Positions 18,592 through 63,409 of a stretch of 64,000 nucleotides of DNA are shown in pieces. Positions within the stretch are counted from its first letter, which is position 1. Each line of letters opens with the position of its first letter. The notes under the pieces are model-generated. The model did not search any database. It saw nothing but the letters and a program-made list of their open reading frames with translations, and was not told where the DNA came from. The position numbers and the translations under genes are program-made. The DNA comes from the human T2T-CHM13v2.0 reference genome, Homo sapiens. The DNA lies in assembly GCF_009914755.1 (NCBI RefSeq), contig NC_060948.1, one strand, 5' to 3'.

Positions 18592-18643
18592 CCAGCAACC
18601 CTGCCTTTCGCCCGCCCCCAGCAACCCTGCCTTTCGCCCGCCC
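18592..18643. repeat. Perfect 26-bp tandem duplication containing GC boxes
   Basis: CCAGCAACCCTGCCTTTCGCCCGCCC occurs twice in tandem. Confidence 0.95.
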
Positions 18644-18708
18644 CTTCCGGCTGGGATCCCGGCAGCTGCCTGCTCTCATTCCAGAAGAGCAATAATAATA
18701 GGAACGCT

Positions 18709-19032
18709 GGCCAGGCGCAGTGGCTCACTCCTGTAATACCAGCACTTTGGGAGGCCAAGGTGAGCGGATTACGAGGTCAGGAGATCGAGACCATCCTGGC
18801 TAACACGGTAAAACCCCGTCTTTACTAAAAATACCAAAAAAATTTAGCTAGGCATGGTGGGGGCGCCCGTAGTCCTAACTACTCGGGAGACTGAGGCAGG
18901 AGAATGGCGTGAACCCGGGAGGCGGAACTTGCAGTGAGCTGAGATCGCGCCATTGCACTGTAGCCTGAGCGACTGAGCAAGACTCCGTCTCAAAAATAAA
19001 TAAATAAATAAAATAAAAAGAATACTACTACT
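18709..19032 (+). mobile_element. AluY
   Basis: Contains GAGATCGAGACCATCCTGGCTAAC and GGAGAATGGCGTGAACCCGGG; 18-bp TSD AATAATAATAGGRACGCT (18691-18708 and 19033-19050). Confidence 0.95.
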
Positions 19033-19059
19033 AATAATAATAGGGACGCTGAGAATAAC

Positions 19060-20620
19060 AACTACGACCAGAACCGAACAGCGAAGGCGCCCCTGTTGTG
19101 TGTTAGAAGTCGGCGCCCCCCGAGTTCCGCAGCAGTCAACACCTGCCCAGGGCCCCCCTCGGCAGCCCCTCACAGCAGCCCCCGGGCTCCCAGAACCCCC
19201 AGGCGCTCCCGGAAGCCCCCAGTCGGTCCCCCACAGCCCCCTGGGGACCTTCTGCCCCGCCAGCCCCGCCCCGGAGCCCCCCGTCCGCCCCGCACAGCGG
19301 CCTCGGGTCCCCCTAACCGTCGCTCCGAGCCCCTCGAGCTCCCAAGCCCGCTTGGAGCCCCCTGTTGGCCCTTCACGACCTCCCCGAGCCCCCAAAGTCC
19401 ACCGCCCACCCCGATCCCGGCCCTCCAGGCCTGACCCAAGGCCCACACAGCAGCTCTGTCGGCTGGGAAGGCCTGCAGGCTGCAAGGCCGCGCGAATGCC
19501 CCGGGCCAGCCCCAACCACTGTCCCTAGGCCAGCGGCGTCTCTTACTGGGATTCGAAGACTGGACGGCTCCCCGGCGGCTCAGCGGCGGGGCGCGAGCGC
19601 TGCCCATGCAGCCCGTGGCGGCGTTTCCCCGGCGGCGCTACCGCAGCGGGAAGGCGGAGCAGGCTCGAGGCCTGGCCGAATTGCGGGCAGGCGGTATGCT
19701 AGCCCGCCACTCGGCTGCGCGGCACCTGTTGCGGAGGACTACTGAGGGGGCATCTGGCCGCAAGCTCACCGGAGGCGCCTCCCCAACTGAAGATCTCGGT
19801 CCATCTCAGGGTGGCCTCTGACTCTCCGACCCGGCGCTGGTGCAGGCTGCATGAGAAGCTCTGGCCCATTGTCCCCGCACCCCACACCCCTTATCCGTCA
19901 CAGCCATTGGCCCGCCCCAGTTGGCCGCAGGGACTGAGCAAGTTATGCGGTCGGGAAGACGTGCGTTAAAGGGCTGAAGGGGAGGGACGGAACTGACAGT
20001 CTCTGTGACAGCTCTGAGGTGGGAGTAGGAGGACGTCGCATTGACGATTGGGCAGGGTCCTGCGTAAGGGAGCACACGACCCTGGAAGTAGCGAGCAACC
20101 GGATTGGCGGTTTCCTTCGCAAACGTCTTGCCTTCTGGGGCCTGGCAATTGGTCTTTCCAAGTGTCGGAAGCGACGGGGATATGGTCTGGAAACATCTGG
20201 TTTTGAACATCTGGTATTGAAGCGCTGGGAGGCAAAACGTCTGCCCCGCGCGCCCATGCGGCGAGTGTCGGTCCGTGCCCCTGCTCAAGGACAGCTCGGG
20301 CCACGTGCGCCCCGGTCCCCAGAAGGCCTGGCTCCGGACTGTGCTGCCCTGGGGCGTCACTGGGCAAGGAGAGCAGTGGGTCGGCGTCGAGGGGAGGGGA
20401 CCTGGGCTTCGGAGCGGTTGCTCCGGGTGGGCACTGGCCGCGCAACCCCTCTCCCGCGCAGAGACGCTAGCTCCACCGTGAGCGGGAACGGCCCTTGGGC
20501 GGGTTGTAGCGTTGGCTCCAGATTCCCTGGGTCTCGCGCACTGAGAGCCTGAGCCGCCTGAGGGAGGCAAAGCGCCCTGGAGCCGCGTCCCCTGCCTTGC
20601 AAGTTAGTTCTCCAACACGC
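19060..20620. promoter_or_regulatory. CpG island promoter
   Basis: Very GC- and CpG-rich non-repeat sequence with CCAAT boxes (ATTGG at about 19906, 20048, 20103, 20148), GC boxes (CCCGCCCC) and an ETS-like CGGAAG. Confidence 0.9.
19547..19900 (-). ncRNA. Candidate first exon of a minus-strand lncRNA (5' boundary uncertain)
   Basis: Donor-like CCCA|GTAAGA at 19547/19546, followed on the minus strand by a G-rich stretch typical of first introns. No convincing coding frame. A TTTY14/FAM239-like identity is only a guess. Confidence 0.4.
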
Positions 20621-20731
20621 GAAAAGGGTAGAGAGAACTGATGCGGTGACAGAAGCATTGGGTGAAGTTCACTTGGCACCACCCAATTTCTAATTCAGCC
20701 ATATTTTTCATAGTTCTACAAACAAACGTCC

Positions 20732-21705
20732 AGCTGGGTCTGGGTGCTGTAATCCCTGCACTTTGGGAGGCCCAGGCGAGAGGCTGTATTGAAGCCAAGA
20801 GTTTGAGACCAGCCTGGGCAAAACAGCAAGACTCCATCTCTACAAAAGTTTAAAAAATTATGTAGATATGATGGTGTGTGCTGCTAGTCCCAACTACTTG
20901 GGAAGCTAAGACGAGAGGATCGCTTGAGGCCAGGAATTTGAGACCAGCCTGGACTCCATGTATAGAAATATGTATGTGTGTGTGTGTGTGTATTTAAAAA
21001 TATATATGTGTATGTGTGTGTATATGTGTGTGTTTATATGTGTGTGTATATATGTGTGTGTTTGTGTGTGTATATATATATAGATGGGTGTGATTGTGCA
21101 CACTTGTGGTCCCAGCTACTTGGGAGGCTGAGGTAGGAGAATCACTGAGCCTTGGAGGTTGAGACTCTAGTGAGCTATGACTGCACCACTGCACTTCAGC
21201 CTGGCCAACAGAGCAAGACCTTGTCTTGCTCTGTTTTCATATATATATATGCTGGGTATGGTGGCGCACACCTGTGGTCCCAGCCACTCAGGAGGCTGAG
21301 ATGGGAGGATTGGTTGAGTCCAGGAGGTCAAAGCTGCAGTAAGCCATGATTGCACCAGTGCACTCTTTCCTGGGCCACGGCAAGACTCTGTCTCTAAAAA
21401 AATAAAAGGGCACAGACACCCACAGAGGGATGACCACGTGAGGATGCATTGCTTGAGCCTGGGAAGTTGTGGCTACACTGAGCTGTGATCACGCCACTGC
21501 ACTTACCAGGCTCAAGTGATCCTCCTGCCCTAGCCTCCTAAGCAGGTGAGACCACAGTTTTGTGTCACCACTCCCGGCTAATTAATTATTTGTAGAAATG
21601 AAGTTCTAGGTTGCTCAGGCTGGTCTGAAAATCCTGGGCTCCAGTGATCCGCCTTGGCCTCCCAAAGTGCTGGGATTATAGGCATGAGCCTCTGTGCCCA
21701 GACCA
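20732..21705. mobile_element. Cluster of AluJ fragments with a short MaLR piece
   Basis: Several partial arms on + (20732-21503) and one on - (21505-21702); the MaLR-like GATGACCACGTGAGGA lies at about 21430. Confidence 0.8.
20965..21082. repeat. (TG)n/(TA)n compound microsatellite
   Basis: Read directly from the sequence. Confidence 0.95.
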
Positions 21706-22373
21706 ACTGAATTCTTAATTGGTGTCTTGGTAGTTCATTAGTTAATCTGCCTCAGTTTCCTTTAAATGTTTGACCCTAGGCCGTGCACAGTGTCTCTGGC
21801 CTGTAATTCCAACACTTTGGAGAGAAGTGTTTGGGATACTGAGGTGGGCAGATCACCAGAGGTTAGGAGTTCCAGACCAGCCTGGCCAACATGGTGAAAC
21901 CCTGTCTCTATTAAAGATACAAAATTACCCAGGCGTAGTTGTGGGCACCTGTAATCCCAGCCACTCGGGAGGCTGAGGCAGGAGAATTCCTTGAACTCGG
22001 GAGGGAGAGGTGGGTAAGCTTCAGTTGCACCACTGCACTCCAGCCTGGGCAACGAGAGTGAAACTCTGTCTCAAAAACAAAACAAACTAAAAAATACTGA
22101 GCTTGTCCTCTGGCTAAGCTCTATTAAGAAGGTTGTGTGCTGTCATCCTGTTGTACGTATTTGAGAAAAGTTCTAGATTTCACTTCTTGTCCATCTTTCA
22201 TTTGATCTTTAACAAAAAAACAAATGGAGACAAGGTCTTGCTCTGTTGGCCAGGCTGAAGTGCAGTGGTGCAGTCATAGCTCACTAGAGTCTCAACCTCC
22301 AAGGCTCAGTGATTCTCCTACCTCAGCCTCCCAAGTAGCTGGGACCACAAGTGTGCACAATCAAACCCATCTA
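21081..22373. repeat. 146-bp inverted repeat (21081-21226 and 22228-22373), 145/146 identical
   Basis: Base-by-base reverse-complement comparison shows one mismatch, at 21090. Confidence 0.95.
21779..22095 (+). mobile_element. AluS
   Basis: Full Alu with an (AAAAC)n tail. Confidence 0.85.
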
Positions 22374-22437
22374 ATTTTTTTTTTTTTTCACTTTTTGTAG
22401 CAGTGAAGTCTTGATCGCCTGGCTTCAAGTGAACCTC

Positions 22438-23196
22438 TGGAGAGACAGGACTAGCTGGATTTTCTAGGCCAACTAAGAATCCCTAAGCCTAGCTGGGAAG
22501 GTGACTACATCCACCTTTAAACATGGGGCTGGCAACTTAGCTCACACCCAACCAATAAGGTAGTAAAGAGAGCTCACTAAAATGCTAATTAGGCAAAAAC
22601 AGGAGGTAAAGAAATAGCCAATCATCTATTGCCTGAGAGCACAGAGGAAGGGACAATGATCGGGATATAAACCCAGGCATTCAAGCCAGCAATGGCTACC
22701 CTCTTTGGGTCCCCTCCGTTTGTATGGGAGCTCTGTTTTCATGCTATTTTAAAGTCTTGCAACTGCACACTCTTCTGATCCATGTTTGTTACAGCTTGAG
22801 CTGAGCTTTTGCTCACCATCCAGCAATGCTCTTTGCCACCATCACAGACCCGCCACTGACTTCCATCCCTCTGGATCCAGCAGGGTGTCAGCTGTGCTCT
22901 TGATCCAGTGAGGCACCTGTTGCCACTCCCAGTTGGGCTAAAGGCTCACCATTGTTCCTGCAAGGCTAAGTGCGCGGGTTTGTCTAGTTGAGCTGAACTA
23001 GTTGAGCTGGGTTCCACAGTTCTCTTCTGTGACCCATGACTTCTAATAGAGCTGTAACACTCACAGCATGGCCCGAGATTCCTACTTGGAATGCATGAGG
23101 CCAAGAACCCCAGGTCAGAGTAGAAGAGGCTCACCACCATCTTGGAAGTGGCCCCCACCATCTTGGGAGCTCTAGAAGCAAGTCCCCCTGGCAACC
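22438..23196 (+). mobile_element. 5' LTR17
   Basis: Starts GAGAGACAGGACTAGCTGGAT...AAGAATCCCTAAGCCTAGC; contains CCAAT and TATAAA at about 22666. Confidence 0.95.
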
Positions 23197-23199
23197 TTT

Positions 23200-23217
23200 T
23201 GGCAACCACAAAGGGAC
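23200..23217 (+). promoter_or_regulatory. HERV-W primer binding site
   Basis: TGGCAACCACAAAGGGAC lies directly after the 5' LTR. Confidence 0.85.
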
Positions 23218-25089
23218 CTCCAAAGCAGTGAGTAATATTGGACCACTTTTGCTTGCTATTCTGTCCTACCCTTCCTTAGAATTGGAGGAAAATACTGGGC
23301 ACCTGTCAGGTAGTTAAAAACGTTAGCATGGTGCTGGACTTAAGACTCAGGTATGAGGCTGTCTGGGATAGAGCTTTCTAACAATCTCAACCCTTCTTGG
23401 TCGGGAGCATTGGTCTGCCTAGAACCAGCATCCTCTTTGATTATTCCTGGGGAAGCAGAGGGCTAACTAGAGGCAGAAAGCTGTCATCCCTAACTCCCAG
23501 CATTAGCTGTTTGAGATCATGGTGCAGCCAGAAGTCTCTACTCAACAGTCGCCCATGCGTGTGCCCCCACCTTTCCTTCTGATCTATACCTCCTGGGTCC
23601 TGACCATGACTTTCTTGAAAGTGTAGCCCCAAAATTCTCCTTACTTCTGAATCTACTTCCTCCAATCCCTGCCTCCTAATTAATAATGGTTCAGACTTTC
23701 ATTTCCTCTAGCAAGTTGTATCTCCAAAGGGATCTAAGGAAGCTCTAAGCTGCATCCTTAGGCCCCTAGGCTATGAACCCAGAGAGTCTTTTCCCTGATA
23801 TCCCTCCCAATTTATGCATACAGCTCTCAACATGGGCAGTTATGTGGGACCCATTCCCCACTACCCTTGCCAAGGCCCCAGGTTTCTAAAGGGCTAGCAG
23901 AAAACAGAGAGACAGAGGGGAGAGAAAGAGAGAGAGGCAAAGCAAGAGTCAAAAAGAGAAAGAAAGAAGAAAGAGAAAGAAAGATAGAAGAAAAAAACAG
24001 TGTGCCCTATTCCTTTAAAAGCCAGGGTAAATTTAAAGCCTGTAATTGATAATTGAAGGTCTTCTCCAAGACCCTATAACACTCCAATACTACCTTGTTG
24101 GCATTGTAAACAAGGTCATAACCTGAAAACACTGAGACCACTGGCAACTCGTAGCCATCCTATCAAAAATCCTTAACCCAGGAACCTACAGATGGCCCAA
24201 ATGCATTCAATTTGTAGCAGTAACTACTTTGCTAACAGAAGAAAGTAGAAAAGTAACTTTTGGGCGAAACCTCTTTGTGAGCACATCTCACCATTTCAGA
24301 ATTATTCTAAGTCAAAAAAGCATAAAGGTAGCTTACTAACTCAAAAATCTTAAAGTATGGGGCTATTCTTTAGAAAAAGGTGATTTAACATTAACCACTG
24401 AAAATTCCCTTAACCCAGCAGATATCCTAACAGGGAATTTAAATCTTAATTGCCATACAAAAGTCCGACCACACCTACGAGGAACTCCCTTCAGGACAGG
24501 AGGATAGATGGTTCATCCCAGGTGATTGAGGGGGAAAAAACAAAAATACAATGGTTATTCAGTAATTGATAGGGAGACTCTTGTGGAAGCAGAGTTAGGA
24601 AAATTGCCTAATAATTGGTCTGCTCAAACGTGCTAGCTGTGTGCACTCAGCCAAACATTAAAGTACTTACAGAATCAAAAAGACTGTACCTCAATCCTGA
24701 CTCAAAAGGTTACCTACACCCTCTCTGAAATAAATTTGCGTAAGAACTGTTGTTTATAGCAATGCATATTGATGGGGCAGCTGGGTTGTTATGAAATACT
24801 CAGGAACCCAGCCCAGCTCTAGAACTCACCTATGAGTACAAAGGCAATGTTGGGCACACTTGGTAAAGGACCACTAGAATCCAGCAGCCCAGACCACTTT
24901 CTTTCTTGGTGGTCAAGAAGGGCAGGAAAACAGGTACAGTACTGCCGCATTGGTGAGCATAACTTATCCATTAAGCAGAAGTCCATTGGTGGTTACACAC
25001 CCTGGAAAAGTATAAGCATTATGACCATAGAGGACACTCTAGGACTAATGCTCATCAGAAAATGACTGGGGTGCTGATATTCCCCCCAA

Positions 25090-25975
25090 GGCAAACATTC
25101 CCTCCAAGGCAAAGATGCCCCAAAGATGTATTCTGGAGTATTCAGCCCAGTCAGAGAATATGTACCTGTTTCCTTGTCAGACTTGAAGAAAATTGAAATA
25201 GACCTAAGTAAATTCTCAGATAACCTTGATGGCTATGTTAATGTTTTGTAAGGGTTAGGACAATCCTTTGACCTGACATGGAGAGAAATAATGTTACTGC
25301 TAGATTGGACGCTAACCCCAAATGAGATAAGTGCCACCATAACTGCAGCCTGAGAGTTTGGCAATCTCTGCTCTCTCCATCAGGTCAATGATAGGATGAC
25401 AACAGAGGAAAGAGAACAATTCCCCACAGGCCAGCAGGCAGTTCCCAGTGTAGACCCTCAATGGGATGCAGAATCAGCAAATGTAGATTTGTGCCACAGA
25501 CATTTGCTAATTTGTGTGCTAGAAAGATTGAGAAAAACTAGGAAGAAGCCTATAAATTATTCAATGATGTCCACTATAACACAGGGAAAGGAAGAACAGC
25601 CTACTGCCTTTCTGGAGAGACTAAGAAAGCCGCTGAGGAAGCATACCTCTCTGTCACCTGACTGTGTTAAAGGCCAACTAATATTAAAGGATAACTTTAT
25701 CACTCATTCAGTTGCAGACATTAGAAAAAAACTTCAAAAGTCCACCTTTGGCCTGGAGCAAAACTTACTATACCCTATTGAACTTGGCAACCTCATTTTT
25801 TTATAATAGAGATCAGGAAGAGCAGGCGGCAAATTGAATGCCTAATGGGGCTTGCTTCCAGTGCAGTCTGCAAGGACACTTTAAAAAGATTGTCCAAATA
25901 GAAATAAGCCACCCCCTCATCCATGCCCCTTATGTCAAGGGAATCACTGGAAGGCCCGCTGCCCCAGGGGATGAA
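25090..25975 (+). pseudogene. HERV-W gag remnant (partly deleted; capsid and nucleocapsid)
   Basis: Translates to MTTEEREQFPTGQQAVPSVDP...ITQGKEEQPTAFLERLR with Zn-knuckle remnants; contains multiple stops. Confidence 0.9.
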
Positions 25976-26039
25976 GGTTCTCTGAGTCAGAAGCCACTAA
26001 ACAGATGATCCAGCAGCAGGACTGAGGGTGCCCAGGGCA

Positions 26040-26400
26040 AGTGCCAGCCAATGCCATCACCCTCACAGAGCCCCAGGTATGCTTGACCATTGAGGGCCAG
26101 GAGGTTAACTGTCTCCTGGACACTGGCATGGACTTCTCAGTCTTACTCTTCTGTCCTGGACAACTGTCCTCCAGATCTGTCACTATCAGAAGGGTCCTAG
26201 TATAGCCAGTCACTAGATACTTCTCCCAGCCACTAAGTTGGGACTGGGGAACTTTACTTTCACATGCTTTTCTAATTATACCTGAAAGCCCCACTCCCTT
26301 ATTAGGGAGAGACATTCTAGCAGAAGCAGGGGTCATTATACACCTGAACATAGGAGAAGGAACACCTGTTTGTTTCCACCTGCATGAGGAAGGAATTAAT
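26040..26400 (+). pseudogene. HERV-W protease remnant
   Basis: LLDTG active site (CTCCTGGACACTGGC, about 26113) and the LLGRDIL motif; contains stops. Confidence 0.9.
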
Positions 26401-28945
26401 CCTGAAGTCTGATCAACAGAAGGACAATATGGATGAGCAAAGAATGCCTGTCCTGTTCAAGTTAAACTAAAGGATGCTGCCTCCTTTCCCTACCAAAGGC
26501 AGTATCCCCATAGACCCAAAGTCCAACAAGGACTCCAAAAGGTTGTTGAGGACCTAAAAGCCCAAGGCCTAATAAAACCATGGACTAGCCCCTGCAATAC
26601 TCCAATTTTAGGAGTACAGAAATCTAATGGACAGTGGAGGTTAGTGCAAGATCTCAGGATTATCACTGAGGCCACTGTCCCTCTGTACCCAGCTGTACCT
26701 AAACCTTATACTCTACTTTCCCAAATACCAGAGGAAGTAGAGTGTTTTGCAGTCCTGGACCTTAAGGATGCCTTTTTCTGCATCCCTGCACATCCTACCT
26801 CAATTCTTGTTTGCCTTTGAAGATCCTGGAAACCCAATGTCTCAACTCACTTGGACTGTTTTACCCCAAGGGTTCAGGGAAAGCCCCCATCTGTTCACTC
26901 AGGCATTAGCCCAAGACTTGAGCCATTTCTCCTACCTGGACACTCTTGTCCTTCAGTATGCGGATGATTGATTGATTGACTGATTGATTGATTTTGAGAT
27001 GGAGTCTCCCTCTGTCACCCAGGCTGGAGTACAGTAGTGCAATCTTGGCTCACTGCAAGCTCCGCTTCTCAGGTTCACACCATTCTCCTCCCTCAGCCTC
27101 CCCAGCAGCTGGGACTACAGGTGCACACCGCCACACCCGACTAATTTTTTGTATTTTTAGTAGATACAGGGTTTCACCATGTTAGCCAGGATGGTCTTGA
27201 TCTCCTGAACTTGTGATCCACCCACCTTGGCCTCTCAAAGTGCTGGGATAATAGATGTGAGCCACTGTGCCCAGTCGTGGATGATTTACTTTTAGCCACC
27301 CATTCAGAAACCTTGTGCCATCAAGCCATACAAGCGCTGTTAAATTTCCTCACCACCTGTGGCTACAAAGTTTCCAAACAAAAGCCTCAGCTCTGCTCAC
27401 AGCAGGTTGCATACTTAGGGCTAAAATTACCCAAGGGCACCAGGGCCCTCAATGAGGAACTTACCCAGCCTATACTGGCTTATCCTCATCCCAAAACCCT
27501 AGAGCAACTGAGAAGTTCCTTGGAATAACAGGCTTCTGCTGAATATGGATTCCCAGGTATGGCGAAATAGCCAGGCCATTATATACATTAATTAAGGAAA
27601 CTCAGAAAGCCAATACGCATTTAGTAAGATGGACACCTGAAACAAAAGTGGCTTTCCATGCTCTAAAGAAGGCCCTAACCCAAGCCCCAGTGTTAAGCTT
27701 GCCAATGGGGCAAGACTTTTCTTTATATGTCAGAGAAAAAACAGGAATAGCTTTAGGAGTCTTTACAGAGGTTTGAGGGACCAGCTTGCAACCTGTGGCA
27801 TACCTGAGTGAGAAAATTGATGTAGTGGCAAAGGATTGGCCTCACTGTTTACAGGTAGTGGTGGCAGTAGCAGTCTTAGTATCTGAAGCAGTTAAAATTA
27901 TACAGGGAAGAGATCTTACTGTGTGGACATCTCATGATATAAATGGCATACTCACTGCTAAAGGAGACTTGTGGCTGTCAGACAACCATTTGCTTAAATA
28001 TCAGGCTCTATTAATTGAAGGGCCAGTGCTGTGACTGCGTACTTTTGCAGCTCTTAACCCACACACATTTATTCCAGACAATGAGGAAAAGATAGAACAT
28101 AACTGTCAACAGGTGATTGCTCAAACCTACGCTGCTCAAGGGGTCCTTCTAGAGGTTCCCTTGACTGATCCCTATCTCAACTTGTATACTGATGGAAGTT
28201 CCTTTGTAGAAAAAGGATTTTGAAATGTGGGGTACGCAATGGTCAGTGATAATGGAATACTTGAAAGTAATCCCCTCACTCCAGGAACTAGCACTCAGCT
28301 GGCCGAACTAATAGCCCTCACTAGGGCACTAGAATTAGGAAAATGAAAAGGGGTAAATTTATATACAGATTCTTAAGTATGCTTACTTAGTCCTCCATGC
28401 CCATGCAACAATATAGAGAGAAAGGGAATTCCTAACTTCTGAAGGAACACCTATCAAACATCAGGAAGCCATTAGGGGATTATTATTGGCTGTACAGAAA
28501 CCTAAAGATGTGGCCGTCTTACACAGCTGAGGTCATCAGAAAGGAATGGAAAGGGAAATAGAAGGGAACTGCCAAGTGCATATTGAAGCCAAAAGAGCTG
28601 CAAAGCAGGATCCTCCATTAGAAATGCTTATGGAAGGACCCCTAGTAAGGTGTAATCCCCTCTGTAAAACCAAGCCCCAGTACTCAGCAGGAGAAATAGT
28701 ATAGGAAAACCCATGAGGACATAGTTTCCTCCCCTCAGGATAGCTATCCACCAAGGAAGGAAAAATACTTTTTCCTACAACTAACCAATGGAAATTGCTT
28801 AAAATCTTTCACCAAACCTTTCACTTAGGCATTGGTAGCACCCATTGGATGGCCAAATTATTATTTACTGGATGAGTCCTTTTCAAAACTATCAAGCAGA
28901 TAGTCAGGGCCTGTGAAGTGTGCCAAAGAAATAATCCCCTGCACT
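26400..28945 (+). pseudogene. HERV-W pol remnant (RT, RNase H, integrase N-terminus)
   Basis: Motifs WRLVQDLR, LPQGF, Y(A/V)DD split by an Alu, YTDGSS and CEVC; contains stops and frameshifts. Confidence 0.9.
26970..27276 (-). mobile_element. AluY-like element inside the RT YxDD motif
   Basis: TSD GYGGATGATT (26960-26969 and 27277-27286); the tail has become (TGAT)n. Confidence 0.9.
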
Positions 28946-28954
28946 GCAGGCCAT

Positions 28955-29190
28955 TTGAATCCCTATATCTTTAACTTCCTTGTTAAGTGTGTCTCTTCCA
29001 GAATCGAAGCTGTAAAACTACGAATCATTCTTCAGATGGAGCCACAGATTCAGTCCATGACTAAGATCTACCACAGACCCCTGGACCAGCCTGCTAGCCC
29101 ATGCTCCGACATTGATGACATCAAAGGCACCCCTCACAGGGAAATCTCAACTCCACAACCCCTACTACAATACAATTCAGCAGGAAACAA
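28955..29190 (+). pseudogene. HERV-W env cytoplasmic-tail remnant
   Basis: SSRIEAVKLRIILQMEPQIQSMTKIYHRPLDQPASP, homologous to the syncytin-1/MSRV Env C-terminus. Confidence 0.9.
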
Positions 29191-29248
29191 AGTGATCATT
29201 GGCCAACCTCCCCAACAGCACTTGGGATTTCCTGTCGAGAAGGGGGAC

Positions 29249-29999
29249 TGAGAAGTAGAACTAACTGGATTTCCTAGGTCGACTAAGAATCCCTAAGCCT
29301 AGCTGTGAAGGTGACCGCATCCACCTTTAAACACAGGGCTTGCAACTTAGCTCACACCCAACCATTCAAGTAGAAAAGAGAGCTCACTAAAATGATAATT
29401 AGGTAAAAACAGGAGGTAAAGAAATAGCCAATCATCTATCACCTAAGAACACAGTGGGAGGGACAATGATGGGATATGCACCCAGGCATTGGAGCCAGCA
29501 ATGGATCCCCTCCTTTTGTATGGGAGCTCTGTATTCACGCTATTATAAAGTCTTACATCTGCACATTCTTCTGGTCCATGTTTGTTATGGCTCAAGCTGA
29601 GCTTTTGCTCTCTGTCCACTCCTGCTCTTTGCTGCCATTGCAGACCCACCACTGACTTACACCCCTCCAGATCCAGCAGGGTGTCAGCTGTGCTCCTCAT
29701 CCAGTGAGGCACCTATTGCTGCTCCTGATTGGACTAAAGGCTTGCCATTGTTCCTGCATGGCTAAGTGCCTGGGTTTGTCCTAATTGAGCTGAACACTAG
29801 TCCGTGGGTTCCACAGTTCTCTTCTGTGACCCACGACTTCTAATAGAGCTATAACACTCACTGCATGGCCCAAGATTCCATTCCTTGGAATCCGTGAGGC
29901 CAAGAACCCCAGATCAGAGAAGAAGAGGCTTGCCACCATCTTGGAAGTGACACAAGATGCCATCTGGGGAGCTCTAGGAGCAAGGACCCCTTGGTAGCA
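29249..29999 (+). mobile_element. 3' LTR17
   Basis: Follows the PPT, is homologous to the 5' LTR and ends GGTAGCA. Confidence 0.95.
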
Positions 30000-30149
30000 C
30001 TTCCAGCTCAGCCTCCCAAATCACGCTATTACAAGCATGAGCCACTCTTTGTGGCCGCCACCTACTTTTTGAACTCCAATTGTATTAAACACCATAATAG
30101 ACACTTTTGTCTGTTATATTTCATGGATCATAAACTTTTTTATGTATAA

Positions 30150-30365
30150 TTTTACCTTTTATTTTAGATTCGGGTGGTACAAATGCAGGTGTTTTACATG
30201 GGTATATCATGTGACACCAAGGTTTGGAATACAGATGATCCCATCACCCAAGTGCTGAGCATAGAATCCAACTGTTAGTTTTTCAGCCTTGCCCCCTCCA
30301 TCTCTCCACACTCTAATATTCCCTAATATCTACTGTTCCTAAATTTATGTCGATGTATATATTAT
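30150..30365 (-). mobile_element. Old L1PA/PB 3' end fragment
   Basis: Contains TTTATTTTAGATTCGGGTGGTACA...GATCCCATCACCCAAGT. Confidence 0.75.
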
Positions 30366-30957
30366 ATTTCTTAGAGTTCCCTGAATAATGGTCAGGGAAG
30401 GTAATGTGAATGATGCAAAGATGATTATGAATAAAATATTCAGTTTTCTGGAGTGAGCAGGACACTTTTTCATGCAAAATTCCATTTGAATCCTCCACCT
30501 CCAGCCAGCGCGGTGTAGGGAGAGGAAGAGAGACAGACCTATTAAAAGTTATATTTGTTCTCTTGCAGTCTTGTGACTTACTTCTTAATGAAAACCCTTA
30601 TTGTTTTATAAGAAAAGGAGAATGAATGCAGTGTTTGAGATGGAGTTATCTAGAATTTTTAGAAGCATAAACAGACATTGAAAAATTATAGAAAACAAAG
30701 GCAGAAAAGCAGAAAAGACATAGTAGGTCAGATGGTATTTTAGGCAAATACACCATAAACTGGCCACCCAGGTCTGCATCTCTAGGGCTTTCCCAAAGAG
30801 GAGCAAAGCAGTTTATATTCTATTATTATCACCACCATCACCTTTATTTCCCCCCTTACATGATGGATGTCAATATCATGATCATTCTCGTTGTCTGTAT
30901 AACCGTCATCATCATCATTAATACCTCATAAATTTTTTCATGTTATTTTTAACATAG

Positions 30958-31406
30958 TTAGAAAGAAAGAGATTTTGGGCCTCCCAAATCACTAAGCTAA
31001 AAGGAAAAGTCAAGCTGGAAACTGCTCAGGGCAAACCTGCCTTCCATTCTATGCAAAGTCACCGTCTGTTCACTAAGACAGATGTATATTCTGATTGCTT
31101 CTTTTGGAAAGACTTATCAGAAACTCAAATGAATGCAACCATTTTTCTCTCAGCTACTTGTGACCTGGAAGCCAGTTCCCTGCTTCTGTTGTCCCCATCT
31201 TTCTGGAAGAAGCTAATATACTTCTTACATATATTGATTGATGTCTCATATCTCTCTACAATGTATAAAACTAAGCTGTTCCCCTACCAACTTGGGCACA
31301 TGTCATCAGGACTTCCTGAGGTTGTGTCATGGATGTACGTCCTAAATCTTGGCAAAATAAACTTTCTAAATTAAACCAGACCCATCTCAAATTTTGGCAG
31401 CTCACA
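30958..31406 (+). mobile_element. MER4A-like solo LTR
   Basis: Contains AAATCACTAAGCTAAAAGGAAAAGTCAAGCTGG, ends CTCACA and has a 4-bp TSD ATAG. Confidence 0.85.
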
Positions 31407-32594
31407 ATAGCACATAAACAACACACCTTCCCGTTCCCCAAAATATTAGCGCAGGATAAAAATCTAAGAGTATTTCATAGCAACTGATAGTTTGACCAAA
31501 AAAAAAAAAAGTTTTCTTTTCCCAAAATAAAGTTCTGTGGCTTCTGTCAGGGAAAGTTTTTTGTTTGCTTATTTGTGGGTTTTTTGTTTAGTTTGGTTTC
31601 GTCTTTTGTTTGTGGCTTTGGTGGTTTGTGGTTGGGTTTCTTTCTGGCTTAAACATTTCTTGGTGAACAAATGTTTATGTCTTCAGGTCTGTAGACTTAG
31701 ATAACTATCTTAATCTGAGAAATCTAAAGTTTTGAATTGTTCTGTGAATACCAGTGAAGGAATCCACCTTCCCTCTGAAACCATATTCACAAGGCCTAAC
31801 TTGAGGATGCTAGAACCATTTTCAACAACAAAGACACCACATTCATGCTTCCATGGCATACTGCATGTCCACTTCAAGATAGCACCTTTGTATACATTTG
31901 ATTATTCCCCTTACACCCATCTTACTTTGTAGTGTCTTCTGAATGATGAACAACCCAAGACTTATATGGTCAGAACTGAGATCTGAGATTGTCAGAACAA
32001 AGTGTCCTACTGTTTTTTTTCTGCTTGGAATGTTATTCCACAATATTCTACAATATTCAGTGCCATGCAATTGAATGTGAAATATTCAATAAATATTCAA
32101 TATTCAAAAACATATTCAATGCTATTCAAAATATTCTATGCCAAATACAGGAACTGGACAAGAAGAAGGACCCTAGTCTCAATGTTGAAACAGCATCCTG
32201 TGTCAGGCATTGCCAGTGTGAACCATGAGGAGATTGGGAGTCCCATTCTGGAGTGTGGAATCCAGAGAGTGAGGTGTGGGACAGAGGCTCTTTGACATAC
32301 CACCTCATTGGTGTGGCCATATTTTAAGCCCAAGAACATCCCAAGAAATATTGTAAAGCTAGGAAGTATGTACAAACTGTACTCAGGTTTTGTTCTGAAA
32401 TTTAGTGATTTGTACTTTGTGGCTTGCCCACTTCCAAAAACTCATGCAACATGAGTTGACAGTTAGTATTTTAATACAAATAGTTACGATTTTAGGGAGA
32501 CCAAAAAAAAAAATGTTTTCCTGAGAAGAAAATACCTTAGCTGTACATTTGTGTAAAGTGATTTTGATGAAATATGTAGTCAAACAATGACACA

Positions 32595-50055: not shown

Positions 50056-51281
50056 AGAAAAAACTGCCAGTGGTTTGGGTTTGTTGTTCTACACCCCCCC
50101 ACACACACACACCCAAGAACCCACAATTGTCTCTGGACCCTACTGATCAGAATAGTTGCACTCACCGATGCAGCAGCAGATCCCCCTCTTGCCCAAGAAC
50201 CCGCAATGGTTCCTGCATCCTGCCGATCGGTATAGTTGTGCTCACCGTAACAGCAGCAGAAACACTAGTTTTCCTCCTAGAACACAAAGAGGACCGAGCA
50301 AGGTCAGATTTAGTGGCTCTTACTGACACATATTCAAAAACCTGCACTTTTGCTTTTTCTCTTAGAACACAAAGAGGACCAAGAAAAATCAGGTTTAGTG
50401 GCCCTTACTGAAGCATTCTTAAAAACCTGTTAGAGTTCTAAGCATTTTCTTCTGTCAGTATTGGGACCTTATCCCGTCCTATAAAGATGTTATGCCTCAA
50501 AAACGGAGTGGATGGCCATACCCTGAAGGAGGGAAGAGATCTCTAGGGTTGGAAGAATGATATCTTTTGTCCTAACTTCTCATCATATGAATAGGAAGGA
50601 AAAAAATTCTGAGGCTACCCATATCCTAGCTTCAGGAATAGACTTTTCAGGCCAGCTAGTCTGAAGAGGGATCCTAAAATTCCAGATAATCCCCCAAACC
50701 CCAGTGGGGCTTTGGGCAAAAATTATGTATTTCTGTTTGTTGAGACTGGGTACCTAAAGAAAGAAACAGAGTCCCGAAATTTGTACTAGAAATTTTTCTT
50801 ACAATAGAAGTTGGAAAATCACCAGAGAGAGAGAGAAATTATTTTAATTAATTAATTAATTAATTAATTTACTTACTTTTATTTTTTATTATACTTTAAG
50901 TTCTAGAGTACATGTTCATAACGTGAAAGTTTGTTACGTATGTATACATGTGCCATGTTGATGTGCTGCACCCATTAACTTGTCATTTACATTAAGTATA
51001 TCTGCTAATGTTATCCCTCTCCCTTCCTCCACCCCACAGCAGGCCCCAGTGTGTGATGTTCCCCTTCCTGTGTCCATGTGTTCTCATTGTTCAATTCCAA
51101 CCTATGAGTGAGAACATGCGGTGTTTGGTTTTTTGTCCTTGTGATAGTTTGCTGAGAATGATGGTTCCTGGCTTCATCCATGTCCCTACAAAGGACATGA
51201 ACTCATCATTTTTTATGACTGCATAGTATTCCATGGTTTATGGTATTTATGTGCCACATTTTCTTTTTCTTTTTCTTTTTT

Positions 51282-51411: not shown

Positions 51412-57571
<6,160 letters not shown>

Positions 57572-59637
57572 CATTTTCTTAATGCAGTCTATCATTGATA
57601 GACATTTGGGTTGGTTCCAAGTCTATGTGATTGTGACTAGTGCCTCAATAAATATACGTGTGCATGTGTCTTTATAGCAGCACGATTTATAATCCTTTGG
57701 GTATATAACCAGTAATGGGATGGCTGAGTCAAATGGTATTTCCAGTTCTAGATCCCTGAGGAATCACCTCAGTGACTTCCACAAGGGCTGAACTAGTTTA
57801 CAGTCCCACCAACAGTGTAAAGGTGTTCCTATTTCTCCACACCCTCTCCAGAACCTGCTGTTTCCTGACTTTTTAATGATCGCCATTCTCACTGGTGTGA
57901 TATGGAATCTCATTGTGGTTTTGATTTGTATTTCTCTGATGGCCAGTGATGATGAACATTTATTCATGTGTCTGTTGGCTGCATAAATGTCTTCTTTTGA
58001 GAAATGTCTGTTCATGTCTTTCGGGAAGTTTTGATGGGTTTGTTAGTTTTTTTCTTGTAAATTTGTTTGAGTTCTTTGAAGACTCTGGATATTAGCCCTT
58101 TGTCAGATGAGTAAATTGCAAAACTTTTTTCCCATCCTATAGGTTGCCTCTTCACTCTGATGGTAGTTTCTTTTGCTGTGCAAAAGCTCTTTAGTTTAGT
58201 TAGATCTCATTTGTCAATTTTTGCTTTTGTTGCCATTGCTTTTGGTGTTTTAGACATGAAGATCTTGCTCTTTCCTATGTCCTGAGTGGGATTGCCTAGG
58301 TGTTCTTCTAGGGTTTTTATGGTTTTAGGTTTAACGTTTAAGTCTTTAATCCATCTTGAATTAATTTTTATAAGGTGTAAAGAAAGGATCCAGTTTCAGC
58401 TTTCTACATATGGCTAGCCAGTTTTCCCATCACCATTTATTAAATAGGGAATCATTTCCCCATTTCTTGTTTTTGTCAGGTTTGTCAAAGATCAGATGGT
58501 TATAGATGTGTGTTATTATGTCTGAGGACTCTATTATGTTCCATTTGTCTATATCTCTGTTTTGGTACCAGTACCATGCTGTTTTGGTTACTGTAGCTTT
58601 GTAGTATAGTTTGAAGTCAGGTAGTGAGATGCCTCCAGCTTTGTTCTTTTCAATTAGGATTGACTTGGCATTGTGGGCTGTTTTTTTGGTTCCATATGAA
58701 CTTTAAAGTAGTTTTTCCCAATTCTGTGAAGAAAGTCATTGGTAGCTTGATGAAGATGACATTAACTCTATAAATTACTTTGGGCAGTGTGGTTATTTTC
58801 ACTATATTTGCTCTTCCTATCCATGAGCATGGAACGTTCTTCCATTGCTTGTATCATCTTTTATTTCATTGAGCAGTGGTTTGTAGTTCTCCTTGGAGAG
58901 GTCCTTCACATCCCTTGTAAGTTGAATTCCTAGGTATTTTATTCTCTTTGAAGCAATTGTGAATGGGAGTTCATTAATTATTTGGCTCTCTGTTTGTCTG
59001 TTATTGGTGTATAAGAATGCTTGTGATTTTTGCACACTGATTTTGTAACCTGAGACTTTGTTGAAGTTGCCTATCAGCTTAAGGAGATTTTGGGCTGAGA
59101 TGATGTGGTTTTCTAGATATACAATCATGTCATCTGCAAACAGGGACAACTTGACTTCCACTTTTCCTAATTGAATACCCTTTATTTCTTTCTCCTGCCT
59201 GATTGCCTTGCCCAGAACTTCCAACACTATGGTGAATAAGAGTGGTGAAAGTGGGCATCCTTGTCTTGTGCCATTTTTAAAAGGGAATGCTCCAGTTTTT
59301 GCCTGTGTATGGTATTGGCTGTGAGTTTGTTATAAATATCTCTTATTATTTTGGGATACAGCCTATCAATACCTAATTTATTGAGAGTTTTTAGCATGAA
59401 GTCATGTTAAATTTTGTCAAAGGCCTTTTCTGCATCTATTGAGATAATCATGTGGTTTTTGTCTTTGGTTCTGTTTATATGCTGGATTACATTTATTGAT
59501 TTGTGTGTGTTGAGCCAGCCTTGCATCCTAATGTTGAAGCCCACTTAATGATGTTGGATAAGCTTTATGATATGTTGCTGGATTCAGTTTGAAAAAGTTT
59601 TATTGAGGATTGTTACATTGATGTTCATCATGGATCA

Positions 59638-59796
<159 letters not shown>

Positions 59797-62700
59797 TCAG
59801 ATTTGAATGCCTCTGGTACTGCACTTTTTTTTGGTTTGTAAGCTATTAATTATTTCCTCAATTTCAGAGTCTGCTATTGATCTATTCCTAGACTCAACTT
59901 CTTCCTGGTTTAGTCTTGGGAGGGTGTATGTGTCCAGGAATTTATCCATTTCTTATAGATTTTCTAGTTTATTTCTGAAGAGGTGTTTTTAGTATTCTCT
60001 GATGGTAGTTTCTTTTTCTGTGGGATAGGAGGTGATATCCCCTTTGTTATTTTGTATGGTATCTGTTTGATTCTTCTCTCTTTCCTTCTTTATTAGTCTT
60101 GCTAGTGGTCTATCAATTTTGTTGATCTTTTCAGAAAACCAGCTCCTGGATTCATTGATTTTTTGAAGGATTTTTTGTGTCTCTATCTCCTTCAGTTCTC
60201 CTCTGATGTTAGTTATTTCTTTCTTTCCGCTAGCTTTTGAATGTGTTTACTCTTGCTTCTCTAGTTCTTTTGATTGAGATCTTAGGGTTTCAATTTTAGA
60301 TCTTTCCTGCTTTCTCTTGTAGGCTTTTAGTGCTATAAATTTCCCTCTACACACTGCTTTAAATGTGTACCAGACATTCTGGTGTGTTGTGCCTTTGTTC
60401 TCACTGATTTCAAATAACATCTTTATTTCTGCCTTCAATTCATTATGTACCCAGCAGTCATTCAGAAGCAAGTTGTTCAGTTTCCATGTAGTTCAGCGGG
60501 TTTGAGTGAGATTCTTAATGCTGAGTTCTATTTTGATTGAACTACAGTCTGAGAGACAGTTTGTTGTGATTTCTGTTCTTTTACATTTGCTGAGGAGTTC
60601 TTTACTTCCAACTCTGTGGTCAATTTTGGAATAAGTGCGATGTGGTGCTGAGAAGAATGTATAATCTGTTGATTTGGGTTGGAGAGTCCTGTAGATGTCT
60701 ATTCGGTCTGCTTGGTGCAGAACTGAGTTCAATTCCTGGATATCGTTTTTAGCTTTCTGTCTTGTTGATCTGTCTAATGTTGACTGTGAGGTGTTAAAGT
60801 CTCTCATTATTATTGTGTGGATGTCTAAGTCTCCGTGTTGGTCTCTAAAGACTTCCTTTTTGAATCTGGGTGCTCCTGTATTGGGTGCATATATATTTAG
60901 GATAGTTCCTCTTCTTGTTGAATTGATCCCTTTACCATTATGTATTGACCTTCTTTGTCTCTTTTGATCTTTATTAATTTAAAATTTGTTTTATCAGAGA
61001 CTAGGATTGCAACCCCTGCCTTTTATGTTTTCCATTTTGTAAAGTATTTTATTTATCTATCAGTTATGAAGCTTAGTTTGGCTGGATATGAAATTCTGGG
61101 TTGAGAATTCTTTTCTGTAAGAATGTTAATATTGGTCCCCACTCTCTTCTGGCTTGTAGAGTTTCTGCGGAGACATCTGTTAGTGTGATTGGCTTCCCTT
61201 TGTGAGTAACATGACCTTTCTCTCTGGCTGCCTTTAACAATTTTTCCTGCATTTCAACTTTGGTGAATCTGACAATTATGTGTCTTGGAGTTGCTCTTCT
61301 CAAGGAGTATCTTTGTGGTGTTCTGTGTATTTCCTGTATTTGAATGTTGGCCTGCATTGCTAGGTTGGGGAAGTTCTCCTGAATAATATCCTGAAGAGTG
61401 TTTTCCAACTTGGTTCCTTTCTCCCCATCACTTTCATGTACACCAATCAGACATAGATTTGATCTTTTCACATAGTCCCATATTTCTTGGAGGCTTGGTT
61501 CATTTATTTTTACTCTTTTTTCTCTAACTTCTCTTCTCACTTCATTTCATTCATTTGATCTTCACTCACTGATACACTTTCTTCCAGTTGATCAAATCAG
61601 CTACTGAAGCTTGTGCATTCCTCAGGTAGTTCTCATACCATGGTTTTCAGCTCCATCAGGTCATTTAAAGACTTCTCTACAGTGGTTATTATAGTTAGGC
61701 ATTCATCTCATCGTTTTTCAAGGTTTTTAGCTTCTTTGCTATCGGTTCAGACTTCCTCCTTTAGCTCAGAGAAGTTTGATCGTCTGAAGCCTTCTTCTCT
61801 CAACTCATCAAAGTCATTCTCCATCCAGCTTCATTCTGCCTCTGGTGAGGAGCTGTGTTCCTTTGGAGGGGAAGAGGCACTCAGATTTTTAGAATTTTCA
61901 GTTTTTCTGTTCCTTTTTTCCCCATCTTGGTGGTTTTATCTACATTTGGTCTTTGATGATGGTAACGTACAGATGGGGTTTTGGTGTGGATGTGCTTTCT
62001 GTTTGTTAATTTTCCTTCTAGCAGTCAGGACCCTCTGCTGAAGGTCTGTTGGAGTTTGCTGGAGGTCCACTCCAGACCCTGTTTCCCGAGGTATGAACAG
62101 CAGAGGCTGCAGAGTAGTGAATGTTGCTGAAGAGCAAATGTTGCTGCCTAATCATTCCTCTGGAAGTTTCATCTCAGAGGGGTACCTGGCCGTGTGAAAT
62201 GTCAGTCTGCCCTATTTTGGTGCTGTCTCCCAGTTAGGCTACTCAGGGGTCAGGGACTCACTTGAGGCAGTCTGTCCATTCTCAGATCTCAAATTCCATG
62301 CTGGGAGAACCACTACTCTCTTCAAAACTGTCAGAAAGGGACATTTAAGTCTGCAAAGATTTCTGCTGCCTTTTGTTTAGCTATGCCTTGCCCTCAGAAG
62401 TGGAGTCTACAGATGCAGCCAGGCCTCCTTGAGCTGCAGTGGGCTCCACTCAGTTTGAGCTTCCCAGCTGCTTTGTTTACCTACTCAAGCCTCAGCAATG
62501 GTGGTCACACCTCTCCCAGACTCATTGCCATCTTGTAGTTTGGTTTCAAATACTCTGCTAGCTATGATTGAGTTTCTGTGGGTATGAGACCCTCTGTGCC
62601 AGGAGTGGGTTATAATCTCCTAGTGTGCCATTTGCTAAGACCATTAGAAATGTGCAGTATTAGGGTGGTAGTGACCCAATTTTCCAGGTGCCATCTGTCA

Positions 62701-63409
62701 CAGCTTCGCTTGGCTAGGAAAGGGAATTCCTTGACCTCTTGCACTTCCTGGGTGAGGCAATGCCTTGCCATGCTTTGGCTGATACTTGATGTGCTGCACC
62801 CACTGTTCTGCACCCACTGTCCAACAAGCCCCAGTGAGATGAACTTGGTACTTCAGTTGGAAATGCAGAAATCACATGTCTTCTGCATCAATAATGCTGG
62901 GAGCTGTAGACTGGAGTTTTTCCTATTTGGCCATCATCAGGAATGGTTTTTACAAGTGGGATTAGCCTCAGAGATGGGAGATGGAAGGAAATTAATCTTA
63001 CAGGCATTAGAACCCAGGAGGCAAGGGTCAGGATTGATAGGATAGATAAGCAAGTCTCACTTGGTTAACATGATTTTAAGAGTTCTCCTCATGTCTGCAG
63101 GGTCAACCAACTTATTCTCTGGACCCTGCAGCTGAATGGCTTTCCTATCTGACAACCCTCAGTTCAGCTCAGGAGTACAGAAAAATTGGAAGCTGGTTTC
63201 AGGCAAACCAATGCTCCCAACTCTGAAGAATAGGGGGTTCTTAGAGAGATCTTTCCCAGAAAGCCTTACACCCATGTCTTTAGTCCGGTTGCCATGCTAG
63301 TCACTTTTAATTGGCTGACAGGTGCCTGGCATTTAGCTCACAAATTCTAAGGAAAAATAGGACACAATAGTAAGTAAAAGGGGTCTGATGGTACTCACCA
63401 TATGGGGCT

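What the first reader, a model, noticed from the sequence alone, without database searches (positions are those of the whole stretch)
21081..22373. Near-perfect 146-bp inverted repeat made of old AluJ arms, 1 kb apart, next to the promoter
Seen: 21081-21226 and the reverse complement of 22228-22373 are identical at 145/146 positions, including non-consensus changes such as GAGACTCTAGTGAGCTATGACTGC. Identity stops abruptly at both ends. Established: independent AluJ copies are normally far more diverged, and close, highly similar inverted Alus are unstable and depleted in genomes. Inference: recent gene conversion or template switching between the arms. The 1-kb spacer may be a recurrent micro-inversion, and a transcript through it would form an almost perfect dsRNA stem (ADAR/MDA5 substrate).
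Basis: partly seen in the sequence, partly recalled or inferred. Interest (0 to 1): 0.7.

Follow-up and report, generated by a model that had tools for sequence, protein, structure and literature searches.

The report
Template-switch inverted copy of an Alu half
The near-perfect inverted repeat is real: the left arm is an extra, backwards copy of a neighbouring old Alu half that the matching X-chromosome locus lacks, likely pasted into a TA/TG microsatellite by a DNA-polymerase template switch, which is a common kind of small duplication with no function shown.

Summary
Confirmed: 21081-21226 matches the reverse complement of 22228-22373 at 145/146. It is the only one of 148 nearby inverted pairs above 90% identity in 264 kb of Y.

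The X homologue has the right-arm Alu and the Alu monomer beside the left arm, but no left arm. The left arm is therefore a Y-specific insertion copied from the right arm, not one old Alu converted by another. It sits in a TA/TG microsatellite, has no poly-A tail, and ends in a perfect 13-bp fold-back, the longest hairpin in the window. The single mismatch is a later change in the donor.

Likely mechanism: iterative microhomology-mediated template switching. Age is about 4.5 Myr at best estimate (95% range 0.1-25). The spacer is colinear with X, so it is not inverted in this assembly. No annotated transcript crosses the repeat, so the dsRNA idea has no support yet. Small inverted duplications are the commonest inversion class in 1,019 human genomes. 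This is an ordinary member of a known class with an unusually readable junction.

The parts
20968..21080 (.). Y-specific expanded TA/TG microsatellite in the linker of the left Alu; the insertion site
   Evidence: TRF arrays 20959-21081; X has only a short (AT)n linker
21081..21226 (+). Left arm: inserted 146-bp inverted copy of the right-arm Alu monomer; no poly-A tail
   Evidence: 145/146 to the donor; absent from the X homologue; shares 23 of the 24 donor-versus-X differences; branch length 0 in the tree
21207..21235 (+). Perfect 13-bp hairpin (21207-21219 with 21223-21235, 3-nt loop). A 4-bp stem already in the donor is extended by 9 copied bases (21227-21235): the second template switch
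   Evidence: Longest perfect stem in the window; DNA fold z = -4.0, 0 of 200 shuffles as good; junction table
21228..21240 (+). 13/13 match to 22730-22742: possible third short switch that supplies the two T at 21236-21237 (suggestive only)
   Evidence: controls: 0 of 2000 Markov resamples, 4.2% of 3000 window positions, 50 of 4000 for isolated matches
21238..21410 (+). Remaining (AT)n linker and the resident old Alu right monomer with its tail, shared with X and not converted
   Evidence: 83.7% to the X resident monomer, 75.0% to either arm
21227..22227 (.). 1001-bp spacer, colinear with the X homologue; holds a Y-only Alu at about 21770-22092
   Evidence: Plus-strand blocks 21238-21768 and 22092-22437; global alignment
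22228..22373 (-). Right arm: old resident Alu right monomer, the donor; carries the one derived change at 22364
   Evidence: Orthologous copy with unique flanks on X, 83.6%; the left arm and X both have G at the differing site; its Alu is interrupted by the old provirus at 22438
22438..29999 (+). Context: Y-only LTR-bounded proviral insertion that splits the donor's Alu; its 5' LTR holds the 13-mer at 22730-22742
   Evidence: LTR pair 22447-23189 / 29257-29991 at 84.4%; TG...CA ends and a 3-of-4 target-site duplication, empty site on X

Best explanation
The left arm is a Y-specific 146-bp inverted duplicate of the old Alu monomer 1 kb to its right, inserted into a TA/TG microsatellite, likely by one episode of microhomology-mediated template switching. 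SHOWN: extra sequence on Y, copy and donor identity, direction (right to left), fold-back junction, unconverted neighbour, spacer colinear with X. INFERRED: DNA synthesis stalled or broke in the TA/TG repeat. The free end paired, in Alu register and over 2-3 bases (TA or TAG), with the 75%-similar inverted monomer. It copied 146 nt to a 4-bp mini-hairpin, U-turned for 9 nt, possibly took two more bases from the LTR 500 bp further on, and rejoined the (AT)n linker. The same switches run in reverse order from the other strand give the same product, so the order is not determined. A replicative process (FoSTeS/MMBIR type) fits the 146-nt tract better than Pol-theta alone. The product is most likely a neutral scar.
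For: X homologue: one monomer after a short (AT)n linker; Y has 270 extra bases there = 113 microsatellite + 146 arm + 9 fold-back + 2. The right arm and its unique flanks are on X. The left arm shares 23 of 24 donor-versus-X differences, and at the 24th it keeps the X state. Tree: arms joined at 100/98, left branch 0, right 0.0069, stem 0.11. The 13-bp hairpin is the longest in the window; the only other stems of 11 bp or more are one TTAA repeat. The arm has no poly-A tail. Inverted duplications are the commonest class among 733 non-MEI inversions (277 events, median 284 bp), mostly with 1-15 bp microhomology, read as replicative in origin (PMC12350158, passages). Events with a reverse-copied segment giving a single inverted repeat are the majority pattern in ape template switches (PMC7954356, passages).
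Against: The only outgroup is a 14-16% diverged X homologue; no ape Y was available, so intermediate states cannot be excluded. At 21 columns where both resident monomers agree and the X donor differs, the left arm matches the X donor at 12, the residents at 7 and neither at 2. The left arm is 84.2% to the X donor versus 80.4% to the X resident, and the donor clade is not resolved in the tree, so orthology rests on synteny. Entry microhomology is only 2-3 bp. The microsatellite expansion may be older, younger or part of the event. The LTR switch is only suggestive (about 1%), and the C of CAT is probably ancestral. The enzyme cannot be read from sequence.
Confidence: 0.82

Rival explanations
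1. Gene conversion: a second Alu monomer already lay at 21081-21226 on the Y lineage (for example a tandem duplicate of the resident monomer) and was later overwritten by the right arm, or an older copy is kept identical by repeated arm-to-arm conversion, which would make the age too young.
For: Conversion among neighbouring Alus within about 10 kb is reported (PMC8230782 citing Aleshin and Zhi, passages). The outer junction is in Alu register. Y palindrome arms do convert each other (bioRxiv 10.1101/2022.12.01.518658, passages).
Against: No counterpart on X. No resident-type remnant at either end of the 146 bp. The inner end is a fold-back, not an Alu tail. The adjacent resident monomer is untouched (75%). 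It needs two events instead of one.
Confidence: 0.08
2. RNA-templated or endonuclease-independent capture (non-classical Alu insertion, class 2 templated sequence insertion): a transcript through the right-arm Alu was reverse-transcribed and patched into a break.
For: No tail, no clear target-site duplication and a few extra bases fit the definition of non-classical Alu insertions (PMC5402677, passages) and class 2 insertions (PMC5110952, passages). The site is near an active promoter and an LTR.
Against: Class 2 insertions are described as coming from distant regions, whereas this donor is 1 kb away and the junction pieces map within 1.5 kb. The in-register start and the fold-back are simpler with a DNA template. 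No transcript is annotated over the donor.
Confidence: 0.06
3. Assembly or consensus artefact that duplicated the right arm.
For: The arm is flanked by a low-complexity microsatellite; no reads were available here.
Against: The arms differ at one base and the left arm carries the X state, which copying from the assembled right arm would not give. The fold-back junction is a structured biological signature.
Confidence: 0.02
4. Classical L1-mediated retrotransposition of an Alu into the microsatellite.
For: AT repeats flank both sides and could hide a target-site duplication.
Against: No poly-A tail, no left monomer, and the source is the decayed neighbour rather than an active master (145/146 versus at most 88% elsewhere).
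Confidence: 0.01

Closest known systems
Small inverted duplications (invDUP) in human long-read SV sets (Schloissnig et al. 2025, PMC12350158; passages read)
   Same: Short extra copy in inverted orientation, size near the 284-bp median, 1-15 bp microhomology at junctions, replicative origin proposed.
   Different: Those are polymorphic calls; whether this one is fixed is unknown. The term chrY was not found in the 3 supplement files held. Here the copied unit is an Alu monomer entered in register.
Short-range template switches, four-point model (Walker et al. 2021, PMC7954356; passages read)
   Same: A reverse-copied segment from ahead of the switch point gives a single perfect inverted repeat; hairpin extension.
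   Different: Their search covers tens to hundreds of bases around the site; this switch reaches 1.3 kb and has at least two steps.
Pol-theta (TMEJ / synthesis-dependent MMEJ) templated insertions (PMC12426944, PMC7615360; passages read)
   Same: Patchwork of flank-derived pieces, stem-loop priming, minimal microhomology, templates within about 2 kb.
   Different: Such insertions are generally under 25 bp; the main tract here is 146 nt. Pol-theta dependence cannot be tested.
Non-classical Alu insertions (PMC5402677; passages read)
   Same: Alu fragment without tail or clear target-site duplication, with a few non-Alu bases.
   Different: The donor is identified, old, adjacent and inverted; a DNA template suffices.
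Alu-Alu non-allelic gene conversion (PMC8230782; passages read)
   Same: Neighbouring Alu sequences end up identical.
   Different: Conversion replaces an existing element; here sequence was added and the resident monomer was left as it was.
Recurrent Y inversions between inverted repeats (Hallast et al., bioRxiv 10.1101/2022.12.01.518658; passages read)
   Same: Near-identical inverted arms around a spacer on the Y.
   Different: Their arms are 8.7 kb to 1.45 Mb; these are 146 bp, and no second orientation was seen.

Membership tests
Small inverted duplication by template switching | One arm is added sequence relative to the ancestral allele | tested here: met
   Absent from the X homologue
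Small inverted duplication by template switching | Source is nearby and in opposite orientation | tested here: met
   145/146 to the reverse complement 1001 bp away; next best 88% among 40 scored candidates
Small inverted duplication by template switching | Junctions with 1-15 bp microhomology, not long homology | tested here: met
   2-3 bp at entry, 4 bp at the U-turn, up to 8 and 3 bp if the LTR step is real
Small inverted duplication by template switching | Empty allele seen in other humans or apes | not testable with these tools
   No other Y chromosomes held; SV tables of the Y-assembly papers not readable
Alu-Alu gene conversion | Recipient Alu exists at the orthologous site beforehand | tested here: not met
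   X has one monomer there, matching 21248-21394, not the arm; X is a distant outgroup
Alu-Alu gene conversion | No net length change; tract bounded by homologous Alu on both sides | tested here: not met
   157 bp added beyond the microsatellite; inner end is a fold-back
Classical TPRT Alu insertion | 3' poly-A tail | tested here: not met
   The arm runs straight into the fold-back
Classical TPRT Alu insertion | Target-site duplication | tested here: inconclusive
   AT repeats lie on both sides and cannot be told from a duplication
Non-classical Alu insertion / class 2 TSIP | No tail, extra non-Alu bases at the junction | tested here: met
   11 extra bases at 21227-21237
Non-classical Alu insertion / class 2 TSIP | RNA intermediate or distant donor | tested here: inconclusive
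   Donor is local, not distant; an RNA step cannot be tested
Pol-theta templated insertion | Short (generally <25 bp) flank-templated patchwork | tested here: inconclusive
   The 9-nt and 2-nt pieces fit; the 146-nt tract does not
Recurrent NAHR inversion of the Y | Large (kb-scale) inverted arms | tested here: not met
   146 bp versus 8.7 kb-1.45 Mb
Recurrent NAHR inversion of the Y | Both spacer orientations observed | not testable with these tools
   One assembly only; its spacer is colinear with X
ADAR/MDA5 inverted-Alu dsRNA substrate | Long near-perfect stem if single-stranded | tested here: met
   Predicted stem over the arms with one mismatch; a prediction only
ADAR/MDA5 inverted-Alu dsRNA substrate | One transcript spanning both arms, with editing | not testable with these tools
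   Hub annotation shows TTTY14 starting at 20049 and running away from the repeat; no RNA data held
AluJ subfamily | Diagnostic positions against subfamily consensus | not tested
   No repeat library on hand; label recalled. Age is supported by presence on X and by the interrupting provirus

The most novel reading that the evidence does not exclude
This young 136-bp perfect inverted repeat, 1 kb upstream of the TTTY14 promoter, is active: the 1-kb spacer toggles among human Y lineages, or divergent promoter/LTR transcripts fold into a hyper-edited near-perfect dsRNA. That would make it the smallest recurrent inversion on the Y and a worked case of old Alus multiplying locally without retrotransposition, by in-register template switching.
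Probability: 0.08. Interest if true: 0.55.

Novelty: new member of a known kind. Interest (0 to 1): 0.2.

Why it matters
As it stands, little: a neutral-looking scar of a known mutational class. Its value is as an example. The X homologue gives the pre-event state, donor and copy can be polarised from one base, and a multi-step junction is readable. It also warns that near-identical neighbouring Alus can be insertions that mimic gene conversion, and that such a site can give false inversion calls. If the insertion or the donor's single change is polymorphic or human-specific, it is a homoplasy-poor Y marker. If the spacer toggles, the non-recombining Y phylogeny would allow a direct measure of inversion rate for arms of only about 140 bp.

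Tried and rejected
(1) Second X paralogue (L019) and chromosome 16 homologue (L020) as extra outgroups: homology ends at 20942 and 20640, so neither covers the donor or the insertion site.
(2) Diagnostic-column test of arm ancestry: 12 donor-like, 7 resident-like, 2 other of 21; weak, because X-private changes confound it.
(3) Looking for a catalogued SV or inversion at this place. 'TTTY14'+'inversion' gave 6 papers, none about this site by title or abstract start. Main-text passages of the 43-Y and 142-Y assembly papers describe only large repeat-mediated inversions (12 of 26, 7 of 7 and 12 of 37 places shown). 'chrY' was not found in the held supplements of PMC12350158 and PMC12229492. No chrY-1907, chrY-1998 or TTTY14 rows in the truncated table of PMC11451754; only 6 of its 124 chrY places were seen. 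The per-variant tables of the Y-assembly papers could not be read, so a catalogued variant here is not excluded.
(4) Using published HERV-W coordinates to test for the insertion in the older reference: no coordinates retrieved.
(5) The third (LTR) switch: kept as suggestive only; the two T could also be slippage, untemplated, or from an inverted copy of the ancestral linker seen on X.
(6) The background survey covers only the window and 200 kb upstream; downstream Y was not surveyed.
(7) Spacer inversion in this assembly: rejected by colinearity with X; an even number of past flips cannot be excluded.

Full report
OBSERVATION. Window 21081-21226 and the reverse complement of 22228-22373 agree at 145 of 146 bases; the difference is G at 21090 versus T at 22364 read on the minus strand, leaving 136 perfect bases. 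Identity falls off at both ends. A search of the window's own assembly scored 40 of 3813 candidates; after the two arms the best match is 88%. In the window, 240 repeat pairs of at least 100 bp have median identity 74% and the next best is 87%. In 264 kb of Y (window plus 20 upstream 10-kb pieces, each searched on its own), 1 of 148 inverted pairs of at least 60 bp within 5 kb exceeds 90%, and it is this one. The feature is real and far from chance.

OUTGROUP. Searching the assembly with the promoter region and the spacer found a homologue on contig C23, the X, at about 3.432-3.434 Mb on the minus strand. Colinear blocks run 20497-20952, 21238-21768, 22092-22437 and on from 30007, all in one orientation, at 14-16% substitution in the five blocks measured. 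The global alignment shows three things. First, X has the right-arm Alu monomer with its unique flanks (83.6%). Second, X has the Alu monomer at Y 21248-21394 (83.7%) directly after a short (AT)n linker. Third, X has nothing for Y 20968-21237. Those 270 bases are 113 of TA/TG microsatellite, the 146-bp arm, 9 fold-back bases and two T. X keeps the usual order of left-monomer end, linker and right monomer, so the X state is the likely ancestral one (inference).

DONOR AND COPY. The Y right arm differs from its X orthologue at 24 sites; the left arm shares the Y state at 23, and at the 24th, the single arm mismatch, it has the X base. The copy was therefore made after nearly all Y-lineage change had accumulated, and the one later change fell in the donor. 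The tree agrees: arms together at 100/98, left branch 0, right branch 0.0069, stem 0.11, though the link to the X donor is unresolved. The donor's Alu is split at 22438 by an LTR-bounded insertion whose LTRs are 84.4% identical and which is absent on X, so the donor is old. A HERV-W provirus is listed at Yq11.222 (PMC5016936, one passage); equating it with this insertion is my inference. The resident monomer beside the left arm is 75.0% to both arms: it was not converted. Against this reading: a diagnostic-column test was weak (12, 7 and 2 of 21), and X is the only outgroup.

JUNCTIONS. Outer junction: the microsatellite runs into the arm exactly where the donor's linker meets its monomer, the same Alu register at which the resident monomer starts on X; the shared bases are TA, or TAG using the X state. 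Inner junction: the arm stops where its last four bases can pair with four bases 3 nt upstream, and the next nine bases extend that stem to a perfect 13 bp. This is the longest perfect hairpin in the window; the only other stems of 11 bp or more are one TTAA repeat. Its DNA fold has z = -4.0, with 0 of 200 shuffles as stable. Bases 21228-21240 match 22730-22742 in the LTR at 13/13, which would supply the two T. Controls give 0 of 2000 Markov resamples and 4.2% of 3000 random positions, and 50 of 4000 when matches inside longer repeats are excluded, so this step is suggestive only. There is no poly-A tail.

MECHANISM. Shown: added sequence, local inverted donor, direction, fold-back, short microhomologies. 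Inferred: synthesis stalled or broke in the TA/TG repeat; the end switched to the inverted, 75%-similar Alu 1.3 kb away, copied 146 nt, U-turned at a 4-bp mini-hairpin, perhaps switched once more, and rejoined the linker. Reading the same steps from the other strand gives the same product. Pol-theta insertions are patchworks primed by stem-loops and minimal pairing but are generally under 25 bp (PMC12426944, passages). Germline insertions with template switching and TMEJ signatures concentrate under about 2 kb (PMC7615360, passages). A replicative switch for the long tract, with or without Pol-theta for the short pieces, fits best. The enzyme is not knowable from this sequence.

AGE. One change in 292 arm bases at 0.76e-9 per base per year (rate from the 43-Y preprint, passage) gives 4.5 Myr, 95% range 0.11-25 Myr. 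On the tree it is about 3% of the Y stem since the X-Y split. Both figures assume no later conversion between arms. Human-specific and ape-shared origins are both allowed.

Inversion: the spacer is colinear with X in this assembly. The 14 euchromatic inversions among 43 Y chromosomes are flanked by repeats of 8.7 kb to 1.45 Mb (passages), and the passages seen of the 142-Y preprint also concern large repeats. Their variant tables could not be read, so a small variant here is not excluded. Instability: inverted-Alu depletion depends on spacer size, and the yeast data cited cover spacers of 12-100 bp (PMC3670932, passages); a half-length pair 1 kb apart is a milder case (inference). dsRNA: the region folds into a long stem over the arms in silico, but TTTY14 starts at 20049 on the minus strand and runs away from it, and the hub table lists no transcript over the repeat. 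Divergent promoter or LTR transcription is possible and untested.

COMPARISON AND VERDICT. In 1,019 long-read genomes, inverted duplications are the commonest class among 733 non-MEI inversions (277 events, median 284 bp), mostly with 1-15 bp microhomology (PMC12350158, passages). Reverse-copied segments giving one inverted repeat are the majority pattern of ape template switches (PMC7954356, passages). This element meets the three testable defining features of that class. It fails the tests for gene conversion, classical retrotransposition and large-repeat Y inversion, and it resembles non-classical Alu insertions (PMC5402677, PMC5110952, passages). I found no description of this site in ten literature searches (listings only, unless passages are cited), which does not cover unreadable supplements or SV databases. 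The Alu subfamily label is recalled, not tested. Verdict: real; new member of a known kind; interest 0.2.

Noticed in passing
window 19034-20640; L012/L020 (G000:C16:95.570-95.572 Mb): The TTTY14 promoter CpG island has a 72-73% homologue over about 1.3-1.5 kb on chromosome 16, longer and more continuous than the X homologue's match. From memory this is near the ANKRD11 promoter; not verified.
   Followed up: partly
window 18633-32377; L018 (G000:C23:3427000-3436500, minus): An X-Y homologous block at 14-16% divergence with shared old Alus and lineage-specific Alu insertions: two minus-strand Alus on X near the promoter and one Alu on Y at about 21770-22092.
   Followed up: partly
window 22438-29999: Y-only LTR-bounded proviral insertion of 7.56 kb with LTRs 84.4% identical and a 3-of-4 target-site duplication; it splits an Alu. 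Probably the HERV-W provirus listed at Yq11.222.
   Followed up: partly
window 51796-62935: Direct repeat with a period of about 5.8 kb: 51796-55269 versus 57567-61038 at 87%, continuing 55647-57561 versus 61038-62935 at 81%; an old tandem duplication.
   Followed up: no
window 20968-21080: The Alu linker has grown from a short (AT)n on X into a 113-bp mixed TA/TG array with 26-30 bp higher-order periods on Y; a likely polymorphic Y microsatellite.
   Followed up: partly
L019 (G000:C23:3344701-3345001, plus): A second, partial X paralogue matching window 20645-20942 at 81%, in opposite orientation about 88 kb from the first.
   Followed up: partly
window about 50843-50869: A (TTAA)n run forming the only other perfect hairpins of 11-12 bp in the window.
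   Followed up: no
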